Shown here one piece after another: positions 1,748 to 28,196 of a DNA stretch of 64,000 nucleotides. The notes beneath the pieces were generated by a model. That model was not told the origin of the DNA, did no database searches, and worked only from the letters and a program-made list of their open reading frames with translations. The position numbers and the translations under genes are program-made. This DNA comes from Escherichia coli (GTDB taxonomy: Bacteria > Pseudomonadota > Gammaproteobacteria > Enterobacterales > Enterobacteriaceae), in NCBI RefSeq assembly GCF_003790525.1, contig NZ_CP033635.1. One strand, given 5' to 3'. The stretch's first letter is position 1, and the number at the start of each line of letters is the position of its first letter.

Positions 1748-3148
1748 TTATTGTTCGAACTTCGGAGCAATCAGATTATCCAGATTGAATGTCTTCTCCC
1801 ATTCTTCCTGTGTGAGTAGCTTACGTTCGACAACCACTATCTGATGGAGGGATTTGCCTGTATGGTATGCTTCGTGCGCCATTTCAGAACACACCTTATA
1901 TCCCAGATGTGGCTTCAGGAGAGTCACAATACCGCAGGAATGCATTACCATCTCTGCAGTTCGATCGGAATTAGCTGTAATGCCATCAATGCATTTAGTT
2001 CGGAGTGTGTTACAGGCATTCGTCATCACCTTGAGTGAGGTGAACAGCGCAAAGGTGATGACCGGCTCCATAACGTTAAGCTCAAGCTGACCAGCAGATG
2101 CCGCCAGCATCACTGTGGTGTCCAGCCCCTGAACCAGGAAGCAAGACTGGTTTGTTACTTCCGGGATAACGGGGTTAACCTTACCAGGCATAATGGAAGA
2201 ACCCGGTTGCAATTGAGGCAGGTTAATTTCAGCCAGGCCGCAACGGGGGCCTGAAGCAAGCAGTCGAATGTCATTACAAACCTTGGTAAGCTTCACAGAG
2301 AGGCTCTTCATGGCCGAACTGAGTGCAACATATGCACCACAGTCGCTTGTGGCAGCGATGAGATCTTCACTGTTCCTGAAATTAATGCCTGTGATCTGGG
2401 CCAGATATTTCACGGCTAAAGCGGGATAATCCGGGTGAGCGGTAACACAGGTACCAATCGCAGTAGCACCAAGGTTTACAACCCGCAGGTGTTCCTGTGC
2501 ATTACGGATGACCCGAATTTCATCATTAATTGTAAAACCCCAGCCATGGAACTCCTGGCCGAGAGTCATTGGCACTGCATCCTGCAGGTGAGTACGTCCC
2601 ATCTTGAGCACTGTGCTGAACTCGTCAGCCTTTTTGTAGAATGCTCCTACGAGGTGTTCAACAGCTTCAAGCAATACATTGCTTCGCAGCAGCAATGCCA
2701 GATGTAATGCTGTCGGATATGTATCATTGGTGGACTGACCAAAATTAGCATGGTCGTTTGGCGAAACGCGTTTGTAATCCCCTTTAACGCTACCAAGTTT
2801 TTCTGCAGCAAGATTACAAATCACTTCATTGCAGTTCATATTGGTTGACGTTCCGGCTCCCCCCTGAAGCCAGTCGGTCACAAACTGTTCCCGGTACTTA
2901 CCATCAATTAATTGGTCGCAAGCCCAGATTAAAGCATCCGCAACATCAGCAGGAATTGTACCTAACTCCTTATTAGCCATCGCAGCTGCTTTTTTCACAT
3001 AACCGAAGGCAATGATGAAGAAGGGCTCCTGACTCATTGGCATTTCAGTAATATGGAAATTATCCTCACCACGAAGTGTCTGAACACCATAATAGCAATC
3101 ATCCGGAACTTCACGCTCACCAAGGAAATCGCTTTCAATACGAGACAT
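1748..3148 (-). CDS. aspartate ammonia-lyase / class II fumarase family protein (copy A)
   Basis: 466-aa ORF; MSRIESDFLGEREVPDD..YYGVQTLRG N-terminus, GGAGTSTNMN and GSSIMPGKVNPVIPE signature blocks typical of aspartase/fumarase C family; near-identical inverted copy at 30835-32235. Confidence 0.88.
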   Translation of the reverse strand: MSRIESDFLGEREVPDDCYYGVQTLRGEDNFHITEMPMSQEPFFIIAFGYVKKAAAMANKELGTIPADVADALIWACDQLIDGKYREQFVTDWLQGGAGTSTNMNCNEVICNLAAEKLGSVKGDYKRVSPNDHANFGQSTNDTYPTALHLALLLRSNVLLEAVEHLVGAFYKKADEFSTVLKMGRTHLQDAVPMTLGQEFHGWGFTINDEIRVIRNAQEHLRVVNLGATAIGTCVTAHPDYPALAVKYLAQITGINFRNSEDLIAATSDCGAYVALSSAMKSLSVKLTKVCNDIRLLASGPRCGLAEINLPQLQPGSSIMPGKVNPVIPEVTNQSCFLVQGLDTTVMLAASAGQLELNVMEPVITFALFTSLKVMTNACNTLRTKCIDGITANSDRTAEMVMHSCGIVTLLKPHLGYKVCSEMAHEAYHTGKSLHQIVVVERKLLTQEEWEKTFNLDNLIAPKFEQ

Positions 3149-4013
3149 AATTTTCTAACTCCATTTTTCGAAAACAATGTGACAATAACAAATTGTTTTC
3201 ATAAAACACTTATCCAACATTAAGAATGAATACTTATAATCACCAGATGACATAACCATTACCATCTAATGGAATATATTTAAACTAATAAGATAAACTT
3301 AAAACGTGATATCAAGCACATTTTTATAACGTTAAAATTAGTGGGTTATTTAGCAATCAAATATAACCAGTAAAAGCCCGAAATATGCAGATAACGCTGC
3401 ACTAATATGATTAAGATCAAAAAAAACAATTCCGCAATCAAACTTATTATTAATGCTGATTTTTTAAATCATGATTAAGTAGAACTATTTTATAATAGCA
3501 TCCCGGTTTGGTCACATCCTTCAGAAAAACAACCTGTTTACCACCATAGAAAATCTATATCTCTGCTAGGTTTTCCAGCGTTGTAGATATAGTCACTCAT
3601 GGTGATTCTTATTAAGATAAGAGTTTTTACACGGGAATGTTATTGCACTTCTAATTGATAAATCTTGGAATAGAGTAGAAAACGTAATGTTTCCACTCCA
3701 TCTTCCGCTTTAATGGTTTGTAATTTGAGTTAGATCATGGATTTTAACATCCATTATGATTAATTATTTTTAGATGATTTGATCACTAAATCGTCTTTCA
3801 GGGTGTAACGGCATTAATCATCACAAGCTAAAAAAACGCCATACTGTAATGGAGTCTGTATTTTATGTTCAATCATGCAAAGGCTCTTCATAATTATCAT
3901 TTCTCTCTTGGAAAAATGACAGCCTGAACATAGCATAAATTCACGTTCTTCAGAGTCAGAAGGTGTTAATAAACTGTCCCTAAAATCTGGAAAATGTTGA
4001 AGAAGGCATCTCA
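3149..4013. promoter_or_regulatory. AT-rich divergent intergenic region between aspartase-like copy A (minus) and pepT-like gene (plus); likely carries both promoters
   Basis: about 865 bp without convincing ORF, strongly AT-rich, flanked by divergently oriented start codons. Confidence 0.3.
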
Positions 4014-6639: not shown

Positions 6640-8000
6640 TTGTCATCCTCCACGCCCAGAAGGATGTGGATTCCTGCTAATCAGGCTATTGCCGGAATCA
6701 TTTCGGTGGGCTCCTGCTTAAACAAAAGGCCTGACTGCACCATCTCTTTACAGGCAAGTACGGCGTGCCCTGCAGCTAAAATATTACGGGTGCCGTTTAC
6801 ATCGGCGCTCGCTGCATATGTGCGCCGGGCATGGCGCGTAGCGCCGTGACTGGCGCTGTTCTTCAACTGTGGTGGCTGAAGAACGACTAAGAGGTGAAAG
6901 TCCTCCACACACCCGGTGAGGGGAAGTGTTAGCGGAAGGCAAGGGTGTTCATCGCGAGGTGAAATCTGAAGGAAGCCGGATGCAAAATGCTGGCCTGACG
7001 AACAGGAAGCGGTTAAGGCGGCGCAGCAGGGTAAGGTGGCACAAATCACCAAAGCCCGATACTCACACGGAACGCTGTGACGTAAAGCCGACAGGCATAA
7101 GCAGGAAAGTCGCGTGAATTACCCCGGGAGATCTGTCGCCCTGCCAGTGTGCTACCGGTGCCGTGAGGCGCCGGGATGGGGCGGCAGAAGTCAGCCGACG
7201 CCGTAGTAGTGCTGCAAAACCGGCAGCATGAAGGGCCGAACATGATTAACTGTGATTAGGACATCCGAACCCGATGATGATTAATGAAGCACACGCGCAG
7301 GCAACTGCGGCCAGCGGCAGAGGAGACGGACAGTATCCGTCAGGGCTGCATGATGGCGCTGAAATCAGCACGGCGGCGGGTGGGCAAACGAAAGCGGAAG
7401 TGCCGCTGACGATGGAAGCGGTGATAACGAGAGAAAACCTGATGCTGGCTTATCAGCGCGTGGTGGAAAACAAAGGTGTGTCGGAGTTGAAACCGTGGCT
7501 GAAGAAGAACTGGCGCAGCGTATGGCAGGTATTGATTGACGGAAACTACCAGCCGCGGGCAATACGCCGGATGGATATCCCGAAGCCGGATGGCGGCGTG
7601 AGAACCTTAGGCATCCCGACGGTGGTGGACAGGCTTATCCAGCAGGCGATAGCGCAGCAGTTAAGCGCCATCGTGGACACAGCTTCTGCCGCTACGCAGA
7701 CGACTGCAACATCTACGTAAGCAGCCGGAAAGCGGGCGACCATCTGCTGAAGGACATCAGGGCGTTCGTGGAGAGCAAACTGAAACAGAAGGTGAATGAG
7801 AAGAAGAGCGCGGTGGCGCGCCCGTGGGAGCGGAAGTTGTGGGCTGACAGTGACGGACCGTGCTGCTTCACCAAACGCCTTGGACGGCAGGCGGAACTTG
7901 GATCGTTACGTACTTGAAAAGTGGATCAACAAGAGGGTTCAACGAGACTGGGGAGTTATATTTCTTTCTCAAGGTCCGGCATTTATCTCTTCCACATGAA
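6640..8000 (+). mobile_element. group II intron remnant (5' RNA domains plus internally deleted reverse-transcriptase/maturase ORF); boundaries approximate
   Basis: ORF 7274-7720 has the RT domain 0-2 signature (ENLMLAYQRV..IPKPDGGVRTLGIPTVVDRLIQQAIAQQL); a downstream frame has RYADDCNIYV..KLKQKVNEKKSAVARPWERK (RT domain 5-7 and thumb); the intervening RT domains are missing and no domain V/VI was seen. Confidence 0.7.
7274..7720 (+). pseudogene. group II intron reverse transcriptase/maturase, N-terminal fragment (internally deleted, frameshifted)
   Basis: see group II intron remnant; RT motifs split between frames, indicating deletion. Confidence 0.7.
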
Positions 8001-17320: not shown

Positions 17321-17519
17321 AAACCATTCAATGGAAGTAAAATCGTGATGGAGATCACTCATAAGGTGTAAGCGCAAAGCTAACGTTGTCTGTTACCTCG
17401 CTCCTAGCGAGCTAAATTACGCTTAAAATATCAGCAATACACGAGCGCCTTGCTCATTTGAGCAGGGTGTTTTCTTTTGTCTTACATACAGTCATGACCA
17501 TGAAATTAGTCAACTACTC

Positions 17520-17657
17520 GGGCAGCGCGTTTATGGGCCGTGAGTAACGAAGTTGGATGCAAATGTCAGATCGTGTGCGCCTGTTAGGGCGCGGCTGGTA
17601 AGAGAGCCTTATAGGCGCATTTGAAAAACCTCCGGCTATGCCGGAGGATATTTATTT
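17520..17657 (+). mobile_element. solo IS200 end fragment (about 138 bp) in inverted orientation to the IS200 copy at 26.0-26.8 kb
   Basis: 137/138 identity to revcomp of 26031-26168, which encodes the TnpA C-terminus and hairpin of the IS200 copy. Confidence 0.75.
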
Positions 17658-18804: not shown

Positions 18805-20102
<1,298 letters not shown>

Positions 20103-24532: not shown

Positions 24533-24651
24533 TTCCTGCCACGTAAGCCCCTCATCGGGCACTAAAACAGCAATACAAAAATATAACCCTCTGTAAATTA
24601 CAGGGCATGGTGAGCGGCTTCGCTATGCCCAAAATCAGGAGAAAGCTCGCT

Positions 24652-25944
24652 ATGGATATTCCCGTTAATGCAGCAAAGCCGGGGCGTCGGCGTTATCTGA
24701 CGCTGGTGATGATCTTTATTACGGTGGTCATTTGTTATGTTGACCGCGCTAACCTGGCCGTGGCTGCCGCCCATATTCAGGAAGAGTTCGGCATTACCAA
24801 AGCGGAAATGGGCTATGTATTTTCGGCCTTCGCCTGGCTTTATACGCTATGTCAGATCCCCGGCGGTTGGTTTTTAGATCGCGTAGGTTCACGCGTGACT
24901 TATTTTATTGCGATATTTGGCTGGTCAGTGGCGACGTTATTCCAGGGCTTTGCCACGGGATTAATGTCATTAATTGGTCTGCGCGCGATAACCGGTATTT
25001 TCGAAGCGCCCGCTTTCCCGACCAATAACCGGATGGTGACCAGCTGGTTCCCGGAACATGAACGCGCTTCTGCCGTTGGTTTTTATACGTCTGGTCAGTT
25101 TGTCGGTCTGGCGTTTCTGACTCCGCTGCTGATCTGGATTCAGGAGATGTTGAGCTGGCACTGGGTGTTCATTGTCACCGGTGGTATCGGCATTATCTGG
25201 TCGCTGATTTGGTTTAAGGTTTATCAGCCGCCGCGCCTGACCAAAGGCATCAGCAAAGCTGAACTGGATTACATTCGTGATGGCGGCGGTCTGGTGGATG
25301 GTGATGCGCCGGTGAAAAAAGAGGCACGTCAGCCGTTAACAGCCAAAGACTGGAAACTGGTGTTCCATCGTAAACTGATCGGCGTCTATCTTGGACAATT
25401 TGCGGTGACTTCTACACTGTGGTTTTTTTTGACCTGGTTCCCGAACTATTTAACCCAGGAAAAAGGAATCACGGCGCTGAAAGCAGGCTTTATGACCTCG
25501 GTACCATTCCTCGCGGCGTTTGTCGGCGTCCTGCTCTCTGGCTGGGTCGCGGATCTGCTGGTACGTAAGGGCTTTTCACTGGGCTTTGCGCGTAAAACGC
25601 CGATTATCTGCGGCTTGCTGATCTCCACCTGCATTATGGGCGCTAACTACACTAACGATCCGATGATGATTATGTGCCTGATGGCGCTGGCATTCTTCGG
25701 CAACGGTTTTGCTTCGATTACCTGGTCGCTGGTCTCTTCTCTGGCACCGATGCGCCTGATTGGTTTAACCGGTGGCGTATTTAACTTTGTTGGCGGTCTG
25801 GGCGGCATCACCGTTCCGCTGGTGGTGGGGTACCTGGCGCAGGGTTACGGTTTCGCACCTGCACTGGTTTATATCTCCGCCGTCGCGTTGATTGGCGCGC
25901 TCTCTTACATTCTGATGGTGGGCGATGTGAAGCGCGTTGGATAA
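24652..25944 (+). CDS. dgoT: D-galactonate:H+ symporter (MFS, anion:cation symporter family)
   Basis: start at [16 protein letters not shown] with AGGAG RBS; 430 aa MFS transporter. Confidence 0.88.
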
Positions 25945-26030
25945 TCTCTTATCTGAGGAAGCCCTTTTTTCTCATACCTGTGCTGAACAGATAGAAATAT
26001 TCAGTAACCATCTCACCTGGTGGGAAGAAA

Positions 26031-26770
26031 TAAATATCCTCCGGCATAGCCGGAGGTTTTTCAAATGCGCCTATAAGGCTCTCTTACCAGCCGCGCCCTA
26101 ACAGGCGCACACGATCTGACATTTGCATCCAACTTCGTTACTCACGGTCCATAAACGCGCTGCCCAGGTAGGGAATCGATAACTGCTCTCCCATTTTATC
26201 CTCTTCAAGCTGGTGCTTTATGTAATCCTGTATCTTCGCCGTGTTCTTACCCACCGTATCGACTTAGTACCCACTGCACCAGAACTCCCTGTTCCTGTAT
26301 TTGAATTTCAAATCACCAAACTGCTCGTAAAGCATCAGACTGCTTTTCCCTTTCAGATATCCCATAAAGCCGGATGCGCTCATTTTGGGCGGGATCTCCA
26401 CAAGCATATGGATATGATCTGCACAGCACTCAGCTTCAAGAATCCGTACGCTTTTCCACTCACACAGCTTTCTCAAAATACTGCCTGTTGCTCTACGCTT
26501 CTCTCTGTAGAACACTTGTCTTCGGTATTTTGGCGCAAAAACTATGTGATATTTACAGTTCCATCGGGGTGCGCTAGCTCTTTTCGTTCCCCATTGGGTC
26601 CCCCTTTTGATTTTTTGTTTGACACTTGCTGTTGCCATACCGCAAGGTGTTTTAACAAATCAAAAGAGGTTTTAATAACTGGCTCAAAACTGAAAGCTTT
26701 CCGGAACCCCCAGCCTGGCTGGGGAGCTGTGCACAAAAAAGCACCTCCACAAACAGGAGGTGCAATTCGA
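26031..26770 (-). mobile_element. IS200 (IS200/IS605 family) element with characteristic left-end hairpins; boundaries approximate
   Basis: TnpA Y1-transposase ORF; left-end terminator hairpin GCACCTCC..GGAGGTGC plus T-run (26735-26763) and second hairpin CCCCAGCC..GGCTGGGG (26707-26725); no terminal inverted repeats, as expected for IS200. Confidence 0.8.
26138..26638 (-). pseudogene. tnpA: IS200 transposase TnpA (HUH/Y1) with in-frame nonsense codon (TAA at 26264-26266)
   Basis: WNCKYHIVFAPKYRR..ILEAECCADHIHMLVEIPPK matches IS200 TnpA; ORF stops at GY* and the same frame continues VDTVGKNTAKIQDYIKHQLEEDK to the natural stop at 26138. Confidence 0.8.
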
Positions 26771-27296
26771 TGAGTTTGTTTACATGATGTAGGTTTTATA
26801 CATGACCTGTAGGATACACTTACTATGAAATGTTGCCTCTCGACAATGATTTTCACAAAAAAATGTGATTCTGATCAATTTGTTTATACGCTGTCATTTG
26901 AATAAATGACTACACAATATAGAGTACGTTTCCGGTGTTTTCGACATAATGACCAATATTTGCTTCCACTGCTTTTCCTGGAACGTGCTGTAGTCATTAA
27001 ATACCGTTACGCGAGGATTGTCCAGCATTTTAATGACACTTAACTTATCTGGGACAACAAATAATTTATTATTACAATTATTGATTTTAGTATATTTTCT
27101 GTTATTAATTAAACAATGTTATTATTTACTATGTGAAAAGAGAAAAAAATACCTCTCAAAGTGATCTCAATGGCCAGAATTATCCTGAAGGAGATGAACT
27201 GATTAAAGCAAAAGACATCCAGTTTAACGAATTCCCCCCCTTCCCCCCAGAAAAACGTGGATTTGTCGTGCTCAACAAAAACTGTCCACGATGTTT

Positions 27297-28196
27297 CTAG
27301 CTATTCTCTTTAATGTTATTTCGTAAAATCGTCCAAAAGTGTTCAGCCGTTTTGTTCAGCCGAGTATCCATACGATAAATATAAGCCTGAATAGGCACTG
27401 CCCATTTAGCAGGCCACGGACACACAAGTCGTTTTGTGTTCAGTTCATCCGCGATTGACCAGAGAGGGAGCCAGGCAATACCAAGTCCATTGAGTGCCAT
27501 ATTTTTTAGTAGTTCACTCATTGAAGATACCAATATTGTGTGTCCGGCTATCCCTCCCTGTTCTGCCAAATGACGATTAACCAGTCTGCCCATATAAGAA
27601 GTTGGAGTATAGTCGAGCAAAGGAGCCTGTGAATTGGTAAGATCGAAAATCGGTTTTCCCTGTTGATCAGCAGCACATACCGGATACAACTCAGATTCAA
27701 ACAGTTTCATACAACAAAATGGCGATTGCATAAACTCCTCATCTCGAAATGAAATAATAAAGTCACTCTTCCCTTCTCGTAACGTATTTACGGCCTGGAC
27801 GACATCAATAGCCTCAACATGATAGATAAAGTCTCCGCCTAAGGTGGTGAGTGAGTGCAGAAGTTTAGGTAGCATGCTGAGGGATAATGAGTGCGCAGCT
27901 GCAATCTTAATATTAGGCAAATTGAATGAATTATCCCCCCCTAACTCATTCAGATTGCATTCAAGCTGTTGCACTAAACTGCGTGTCTGGGAGTGAAAAA
28001 GCCTACCCTCTTCAGTTAATTGTAAAGGAGAGGTTGTACGATCGAACAAAACAACACCTATAGCTGACTCTAACGCTTTTATTCGTCTGCTGAATGCTGG
28101 TTGTGAAAGGTTACGATCTTTTGCTGCCTGACAGAAATTGCGACAGGCTTCCAGTGTCAGGAAATCATATAACCATTTGGTCTCTATATTTTTCAT
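27297..28196 (-). CDS. LysR-family transcriptional regulator
   Basis: 299 aa; N-terminal LysR HTH (FLTLEACRNFCQAAKDRNLSQPAFSRRIKALE) and substrate-binding domain; divergent from racemase gene. Confidence 0.85.
   Translation of the reverse strand: MKNIETKWLYDFLTLEACRNFCQAAKDRNLSQPAFSRRIKALESAIGVVLFDRTTSPLQLTEEGRLFHSQTRSLVQQLECNLNELGGDNSFNLPNIKIAAAHSLSLSMLPKLLHSLTTLGGDFIYHVEAIDVVQAVNTLREGKSDFIISFRDEEFMQSPFCCMKLFESELYPVCAADQQGKPIFDLTNSQAPLLDYTPTSYMGRLVNRHLAEQGGIAGHTILVSSMSELLKNMALNGLGIAWLPLWSIADELNTKRLVCPWPAKWAVPIQAYIYRMDTRLNKTAEHFWTILRNNIKENS

What the first reader, a model, noticed from the sequence alone, without database searches (positions are those of the whole stretch)
26138..26638. IS200 transposase inactivated by a single in-frame nonsense codon
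The TnpA ORF stops at GY* (TAA at 26264-26266) and the same frame continues with VDTVGKNTAKIQDYIKHQLEEDKMGEQLSIPY to the natural stop, so a single point mutation (Tyr codon to TAA) separates this copy from an intact transposase. That makes it a candidate for reactivation by reversion or stop-codon readthrough.
Basis: seen in the sequence. Interest (0 to 1): 0.3.

Follow-up and report, generated by a model that had tools for sequence, protein, structure and literature searches.

The report
Decayed IS200 transposase pseudogene, multiple lesions
This is an old, dead copy of the small mobile element IS200 in an E. coli genomic island. Its transposase gene has a premature stop plus two earlier single-base deletions, so it is an ordinary pseudogene already flagged in public annotation, not one mutation away from revival.

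Summary
On the minus strand, TAA at 26266-26264 replaces a Tyr codon (TAC/TAT in intact IS200C/IS200; codon 111). The same frame runs on to the natural stop at 26140-26138.

Alignment to four intact E. coli copies shows two further 1-nt deletions, in codons 7 and 10. The native start (ATG 26594-26592, behind the native ribosome-binding site) therefore reads MGNEKS then TAG (26576-26574). The rest of the gene is out of frame by 2 bases.

It has no Shine-Dalgarno sequence, and its first 24 residues are not transposase sequence.

The stop lies 14 codons before the catalytic Tyr125. A 3-nt deletion also sits at the foot of the left-end hairpin. RefSeq already calls the identical SMS-3-5 locus "frameshifted; internal stop". 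No copy with fewer lesions ranked at the top among 5,426 complete E. coli genomes.

The 5'UTR RNA structures still match Rfam STnc490, but they are not better conserved than the coding region. Verdict: ordinary decayed IS200 relic, low interest.

The parts
26029..26734 (-). IS200 (IS200C-like) relic, 706 bp between GTGCACAG... and ...GATATTTATT. Intact copies measure 711 bp between the same landmarks. The exact left boundary is ambiguous within the T-run 26735-26739.
   Evidence: A1 alignment to four intact copies; 95-96% identity.
26264..26266 (-). Premature TAA replacing Tyr111 (TAC/TAT in intact copies).
26592..26594 (-). Native tnpA start codon. It is preceded by the Shine-Dalgarno sequence AAGGGGGA at 26606-26599, whose last base is T>A relative to intact copies.
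   Evidence: Ellis 2015 (PMC4513863) gives the SD as AAGGGGGU.
26568..26577 (-). Two single-base deletions. One T is lost from AGC-TTA (codon 7, at 26576). One A is lost from CAC-ACC (codon 10, between 26569 and 26568). The net shift is -2. TAG at 26576-26574 terminates the native frame after MGNEKS.
   Evidence: PGAP note 'frameshifted; internal stop'.
26636..26638 (-). De novo ATG (CTG in all intact copies) in the apical loop of the 5'UTR stem-loop. No SD lies upstream (TTGTTAAAACACCTTGCGGT).
26408..26416 (-). HUH motif (His61-Ile62-His63), intact.
   Evidence: aligned to the HUH of solved Y1 transposases.
26222..26224 (-). Codon for the catalytic Tyr125 (QDY), 14 codons downstream of the premature stop.
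   Evidence: Aligns to Tyr127 of IS608 TnpA. TnpA Y125F is listed as catalytically dead in PMC4513863.
26708..26724 (-). Left-end hairpin (the internal terminator of IS200), CCCCAGC-CAG-GCTGGGG. A 3-nt deletion lies between 26727 and 26726, with 2 substitutions at 26726-26725 at its 5' foot and a T>C change in the loop at 26717.
26601..26669 (-). SD-sequestering stem-loop of the tnpA 5'UTR. It is still predicted to fold, but carries 5 substitutions.
   Evidence: fold. Rfam STnc490 match at 26604-26727, 122.2 bits against a gathering score of 56.
26038..26056 (.). Right-end hairpin CCTCCGGCTATGCCGGAGG, identical to intact copies.
26741..26763 (-). Host terminator-like hairpin plus T-run, immediately 5' of the IS left end (insertion context).
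   Evidence: The same arrangement is seen at all four other copies.

Best explanation
This is a vertically inherited, decayed copy of IS200 (IS200C-like) sitting in an IS-rich E. coli genomic island, between a second dgoT-like MFS transporter gene and a hypT-like LysR regulator gene.

Its transposase gene is dead several times over:
1. Two single-base deletions in codons 7 and 10 uncouple the native start codon and ribosome-binding site from the gene body. Translation from the native ATG ends after six residues.
2. TAC>TAA at codon 111 removes the C-terminal segment carrying the catalytic Tyr125.

In addition, a 3-nt deletion at the foot of the left-end hairpin probably impairs recognition or cleavage of that end, even if transposase were supplied in trans. 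That last step is inferred from the IS608 mechanism, not shown here.

The apparent intact 5' end of the ORF is an accident. A C>A substitution made an ATG in the shifted frame inside the 5'UTR. The element is therefore neither autonomous nor one mutation from reactivation. At most its RNA hairpins and terminators remain as passive sequence features.
For: - Extra lesions: alignment to four intact copies shows the two 1-nt deletions, the 3-nt left-end deletion and TAC>TAA.
- Native frame reads MGNEKS-TAG.
- PGAP annotation of the 100%-identical SMS-3-5 locus is 'frameshifted; internal stop', 457 nt.
- Catalytic Tyr125 lies downstream of the stop.
- Relaxed constraint: 5 synonymous against 9 non-synonymous changes relative to the IS200C consensus. 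Between intact copies the ratio is about 20:5 (Fisher p=0.013).
- A query with all three coding lesions repaired finds nothing better than 99.6% identity (= the 3 lesions) in 5,426 complete E. coli genomes.
- The window is 99.995% identical to SMS-3-5 over 20.8 kb, in an island full of IS66/IS3/IS4/IS256 pseudogenes.
- Many carriers have only 2 IS200-matching places, consistent with the relic plus the 143-bp fragment, so they probably have no transposase source (identity of the second place not checked).
Against: - The Y1_Tnp domain and HUH motif are otherwise complete.
- The new ATG is exactly in frame, so a single reversion would restore a 166-aa ORF.
- One metagenome sample yields contigs (L006/L007) encoding just such an uninterrupted ORF, P0012. 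Those contigs look like chimeras or recombinants with another IS200 copy.
- Some 'private' C-terminal substitutions are shared with a second fragment at 17514-17656. They may therefore be lineage variants rather than post-inactivation decay.
- No expression or transposition data exist for this copy.
Confidence: 0.9

Rival explanations
1. One reading: the copy is intact apart from one Tyr>TAA mutation. Reversion or stop-codon readthrough could reactivate it.
For: The stop replaces a Tyr codon and the downstream frame is homologous to the natural stop.
Against: Two frameshifting deletions in codons 7 and 10, TAG at native codon 7, and a left-end 3-nt deletion. PGAP note 'frameshifted; internal stop'. 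TAA-G is a strong termination context (established knowledge, not tested).
Confidence: 0.03
2. The de novo ATG at 26638 compensates for the frameshift. A variant TnpA with a new 24-aa N-terminus was or is a working gene, and the TAA is its only disabling lesion.
For: The ATG is in frame. The Pfam domain is covered at positions 3-121 of 121. P0012, an uninterrupted 166-aa ORF with the same N-terminus, exists in two contigs from one sample.
Against: - No Shine-Dalgarno sequence lies upstream and the ATG sits in the stem-loop.
- L006/L007 equal the relic's left half joined to the right half and right flank of a different IS200 pseudogene found in 342 genomes. The two contigs switch at different columns, as assembly chimeras do.
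- No complete E. coli genome among the top-ranked hits has this left half without the stop.
Confidence: 0.05
3. The element is kept for its RNA. It would supply a 5'tnpA/STnc490-type small RNA or the antisense art200, or serve as a terminator module. The coding lesions would then be irrelevant.
For: Rfam STnc490 match at 122.2 bits against a gathering score of 56. Both hairpins are still predicted to fold. IS200 5'tnpA is a documented regulator in Salmonella (PMC5435999, PMC12594629).
Against: - The left 145 nt carry 9 substitutions plus a 3-nt deletion, about twice the density of the coding region (14 of 459).
- cmscan marks several non-canonical pairs.
- One deletion removes a base of the sequence I infer to be the art200 -10 element, and the other shortens its spacer. 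This is an inference from the TSS at nt 153/154 in PMC4513863.
- The 100% identity among carriers extends equally into the flanks, so it reflects clonal descent rather than selection.
Confidence: 0.08
4. Programmed recoding: a +1 frameshift at AGC-TAG (26579-26574) followed by TAA readthrough yields full-length TnpA.
For: A +1 shift at the TAG would read MGNEKS-ASAP-RWNCKYH, which is close to native (read from the sequence).
Against: There is no slippery P-site codon: AGC shifted to GCU is not cognate. No internal SD lies at prfB-like spacing. The arrangement arises from two deletions absent in every intact copy. A second recoding event at TAA would also be needed.
Confidence: 0.01

Closest known systems
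IS200C / IS200 of E. coli and Salmonella (IS200/IS605 family, IS200 group; Y1 HUH transposase TnpA, 152 aa)
   Same: 95-96% nucleotide identity over the whole element. The layout is the same: left-end terminator hairpin, SD-sequestering stem-loop, tnpA, right-end hairpin. The HUH motif and the Tyr125 codon are present. It is inserted directly after a host terminator-like hairpin, like the other copies examined.
   Different: tnpA carries two 1-nt deletions (codons 7 and 10) and a nonsense codon at Tyr111. There is a 3-nt deletion at the foot of the left-end hairpin. Non-synonymous changes are in excess.
RefSeq pseudogene ECSMS35_RS26395 of E. coli SMS-3-5 (NC_010498.1 1108551-1109007)
   Same: 100% identical sequence and the same flanks.
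   Different: None. This is the same locus in a sequenced relative, already annotated 'frameshifted; internal stop'.
IS200 pseudogene next to the other hypT allele (e.g. E. coli Ecol_AZ159, 342 genomes)
   Same: An IS200 relic downstream of hypT in an allelic version of the same hypT-racemase-dcu island. It shares the I37T and G150D variants.
   Different: Opposite orientation and different flanks. It has the native left end and no codon 7/10 deletions. Its lesions are a +1 T insertion in the TTTTT run at codons 19-21 (of HIVFAP) and Y110D, with no nonsense codon.
IS608 / ISDra2 TnpA (solved Y1 transposases, PDB 2a6m, 2vjv, 2xm3)
   Same: Homologous fold-level sequence match (E 3e-18 to 1e-15) with aligned HUH and catalytic Tyr.
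   Different: These are distant family members whose elements also carry tnpB. They were used here only to map catalytic residues and to infer the role of the hairpin foot.

Membership tests
IS200/IS605 family, IS200 group (as a sequence relic) | Y1_Tnp (PF01797) transposase domain | tested here: met
   E=1.8e-36, profile positions 3-121 of 121, on the read-through translation.
IS200/IS605 family, IS200 group (as a sequence relic) | HUH motif | tested here: met
   His61-Ile62-His63 at 26416-26408.
IS200/IS605 family, IS200 group (as a sequence relic) | Subterminal hairpins at both ends and no terminal inverted repeats | tested here: met
   Left-end hairpin at 26724-26708 and right-end hairpin at 26056-26038. 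The left-end foot carries a 3-nt deletion.
IS200/IS605 family, IS200 group (as a sequence relic) | Full-length nucleotide similarity to reference IS200/IS200C | tested here: met
   95-96% identity over about 710 bp.
Autonomous (active) IS200 | Uninterrupted tnpA ORF from the native start and SD | tested here: not met
   The native ATG reads 6 codons and then TAG; -2 frameshift (PGAP).
Autonomous (active) IS200 | Catalytic Tyr125 included in the translated product | tested here: not met
   TAA at codon 111 precedes Tyr125.
Autonomous (active) IS200 | Transposition or excision activity | not testable with these tools
   This needs a mating-out or excision assay.
Rfam RF01405 STnc490 (IS200 left-end RNA) | Covariance-model score above the gathering threshold | tested here: met
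   122.2 bits against 56, model positions 1-124 of 124, at 26604-26727 on the tnpA-sense strand.
Rfam RF01405 STnc490 (IS200 left-end RNA) | Expressed, Hfq-bound RNA | not testable with these tools
   No expression data. A deletion hits the inferred art200 -10 region (inference).

The most novel reading that the evidence does not exclude
The relic persists because its left-end RNA module still does something for the host. That module comprises the 5'tnpA/STnc490-like structured RNA, or the tandem host terminator plus IS terminator downstream of the hypT-like gene. Alternatively, homologous exchange with other IS200 copies can regenerate an open tnpA, as the L006/L007 hybrid contigs might indicate. 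That would be reactivation by recombination rather than by point reversion.
Probability: 0.07. Interest if true: 0.3.

Novelty: already known. Interest (0 to 1): 0.07.

Why it matters
It matters little. It is a routine example of IS decay, and RefSeq annotation of identical loci already flags it. The practical lesson concerns methods. An ORF that looks whole at its 5' end can be an artefact of a new ATG in a shifted frame, so "one stop codon from intact" claims need alignment to intact copies from the native start. For genome annotation, it confirms that carriers of this island probably lack an IS200 transposase source at this locus.

Tried and rejected
- **Orthologous copy with fewer lesions.** A query with all three coding lesions repaired gave best hits of only 99.6%. 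None found, so the order of the lesions cannot be resolved.
- **Uninterrupted 166-aa ORF (P0012) as evidence of a live variant.** Rejected as probably chimeric. L006/L007 come from one sample. They equal the relic's left half plus the right half and flank of the AZ159-type copy, and they switch at different points.
- **Selection on the RNA module.** Substitution density is higher in the 5'UTR than in the coding region, so there is no support.
- **Programmed +1 frameshift at AGC-TAG.** No slippery codon and no stimulatory SD; rejected from the sequence.
- **Promoter scan.** Nothing was found inside the element in either the relic or an intact copy, so the simple consensus scan is uninformative for the weak tnpA and art200 promoters.
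- **First strand folding.** It failed on the length limit. The repeat used slightly different start points for the relic and the intact copy, so the two energies (both -46.4 kcal/mol) are not strictly comparable.

Full report
**Observation.** The region 26138-26638 on the minus strand translates as MATASVKQKIKRGTQWGTKRASAPRWNCKYH...FWCSGY*VDTVGKNTAKIQDYIKHQLEEDKMGEQLSIPYLGSAFMDRE*. The in-frame stop is TAA at 26266-26264. The natural stop is at 26140-26138. The read-through translation matches Pfam Y1_Tnp (PF01797) at E=1.8e-36 over profile positions 3-121 of 121, straddling the stop.

**Identity and origin.**
- Megablast against 5,426 complete E. coli genomes finds the 811-bp region at 100% identity in many strains, including SMS-3-5.
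- It also finds thousands of 95-96% matches annotated as intact "IS200/IS605-like element IS200C family transposase".
- The window is 99.995% identical to SMS-3-5 over 20.8 kb.
- The element lies between a second dgoRKADT-type cluster (dgoT-like MFS gene 24607-25944) and a hypT-like LysR gene (27297-28196).
- The surrounding island is crowded with IS66, IS3, ISEc31, IS4 and IS256 remnants.
- The full 2-kb locus is present in 114 genomes. The relic itself, at 99% identity or more, is present in 242 records.

I aligned the relic with three intact IS200C copies (Nissle, NR1441, FDAARGOS_1287) and one Salmonella-type IS200 copy from E. coli strain 100248 (A1). A per-column comparison followed.
- The same alignment shows two single-base deletions near the 5' end of tnpA. 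AGC-TTA-GCG-CAC-ACC-CGA became AGC-TA-GCG-CAC-CC-CGA, in codons 7 and 10.
- The native start codon is ATG 26594-26592, seven bases after the Shine-Dalgarno sequence AAGGGGGA. In the relic it reads MGNEKS and then TAG at 26576-26574. The rest of the gene is shifted by 2 bases.
- In intact copies that frame closes after 21 codons (22 counting the CTG). In the relic it is open only because of the two deletions.
- This ATG sits in the apical loop of the 5'UTR stem-loop and has no Shine-Dalgarno sequence upstream.
- PGAP reached the same conclusion for the identical SMS-3-5 locus: pseudogene, 457 nt, "frameshifted; internal stop".

**What the stop removes.**
- phmmer against PDB sequences aligns the repaired protein to archaeal Y1 transposases, IS608 TnpA and ISDra2 TnpA (E from 4e-23 to 8e-14).
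- The HUH motif is His61-Ile62-His63 (26416-26408).
- Tyr127 of IS608 aligns with Tyr125 of IS200 TnpA (26224-26222).
- Ellis et al. 2015 (PMC4513863) list TnpA Y125F as the catalytically dead control.
- The stop at codon 111 therefore replaces a non-catalytic aromatic residue (Phe in the homologues). It cuts off the C-terminal segment that carries the nucleophile.

**Other signs of decay.**
- At the left end, three bases are missing between 26727 and 26726. Two adjacent bases and one loop base of the left-end hairpin are substituted.
- In IS608 the bases at the 5' foot of that hairpin guide cleavage-site recognition. By analogy (inferred, not tested), this copy may not be mobilisable even with transposase supplied in trans.
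- Against the IS200C consensus, the coding region has 5 synonymous and 9 non-synonymous changes. Intact copies differ from each other at about 20:5 (Fisher p=0.013).
- Five of the six changes in the last ten codons are non-synonymous.
- One caveat: three of those C-terminal changes are shared with a second, 143-bp IS200 right-end fragment at 17514-17656. They may be variants of a sub-lineage rather than decay after inactivation.

**Is there a less damaged orthologue?**
- I repaired all three coding lesions in silico while keeping the relic-specific substitutions and flanks, then searched again. All 15 listed hits are 99.6% identical, i.e. they carry all three lesions.
This is a 166-aa uninterrupted ORF with the same aberrant N-terminus and GDY in place of GY*.
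- P0012 is encoded on only two short contigs from one sample (L006, L007).
- Their left flank and left ~350 nt are identical to the relic. Their right half and right flank are identical to a different IS200 pseudogene.
- That other pseudogene lies next to another hypT allele in 342 E. coli genomes. It has a native left end, a +1 T frameshift and Y110D.
- The two contigs switch partners at different columns. The simplest reading is an assembly chimera across the repeat, although a true recombinant cannot be excluded.
- Either way, P0012 is not evidence for a naturally maintained 166-aa gene.

**RNA features.**
- Rfam's STnc490 model matches 26604-26727 at 122.2 bits against a gathering score of 56. 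The match is on the tnpA-sense strand.
- Both left-end hairpins are still predicted to fold.
- IS200 left-end RNAs are documented regulators in Salmonella (PMC5435999, PMC12594629).
- The left 145 nt nevertheless carry 9 substitutions plus the 3-nt deletion. That is roughly twice the density of the coding region.
- cmscan flags several non-canonical pairs.
- art200 starts at IS nt 153/154. From that I infer that the codon-7 deletion removes a base of its weak -10 element (TAAGCT > TAGCT) and that the codon-10 deletion shortens the spacer.
- There is no sign of selection preserving an RNA function. The identity among carriers extends equally into the flanks, which indicates clonal descent.

**Conclusion.** This is a multiply disabled, already-annotated IS200 pseudogene in an IS graveyard. 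Reactivation would need at least three independent repairs, or replacement by recombination with an intact copy. It is an ordinary finding of low interest.

Noticed in passing
window 17514-17656 (+): A solo 143-bp IS200 right-end fragment, running from about codon 144 of tnpA to the right end. It is 97.9% identical to the relic and shares three of its 'private' C-terminal substitutions. It is unannotated in SMS-3-5. Similar fragments that start within a few bases of the same point lie next to IS3-family elements and ehxC on pO157-type plasmids (L010, L011).
   Followed up: partly
window 26741-26763 (-); L002-L005 left flanks: All five IS200 copies examined sit immediately 3' of a host terminator-like hairpin plus T-run, in the same orientation. 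This agrees with the reported over-representation of terminator-like sequences upstream of IS200/IS605 elements (bioRxiv 10.1101/2025.07.22.666184).
   Followed up: partly
L006 1-800, L007 1-720 (sample SRR18174121 / ERZ28647048): Contigs encode an uninterrupted 166-aa tnpA-like ORF (P0012). They are hybrids of the window-type relic (left half) and the AZ159-type IS200 pseudogene (right half), with different switch points. This is probably assembly chimerism across the repeat, but could be real recombination.
   Followed up: partly
L009 (E. coli Ecol_AZ159) 1650-2109, compared with window 26029-28196: An allelic version of the hypT-racemase-dcu island occurs in 342 genomes. It also has an IS200 pseudogene downstream of hypT, but in the opposite orientation, with different flanks and a different lesion (+1 T). 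The two hypT-like products look only about 80% identical by eye (not computed).
   Followed up: partly
window 19872-19994 (-): Rfam isrC Hfq-binding sRNA match, 150 bits against a gathering score of 39.
   Followed up: no
window 6948-7236 (+): Rfam group II intron domain matches: D1D4-3 at 140 bits and D1D4-1 at 72 bits. This indicates a group II intron in the window.
   Followed up: no
window 1878-3198 and 31914-30785 (inverted): A segment of about 1.3 kb is present twice in the window in opposite orientations, at 99-100% identity. In SMS-3-5 an IS3-family transposase gene sits beside it at one copy.
   Followed up: no
window 24607-25944 (+) and upstream: The dgoT-like MFS gene belongs to a second dgoRKADT-type cluster inside the island. 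Homology to the K-12 dgoT-cbrA region ends at about 25960, 16 bp after the stop codon.
   Followed up: no
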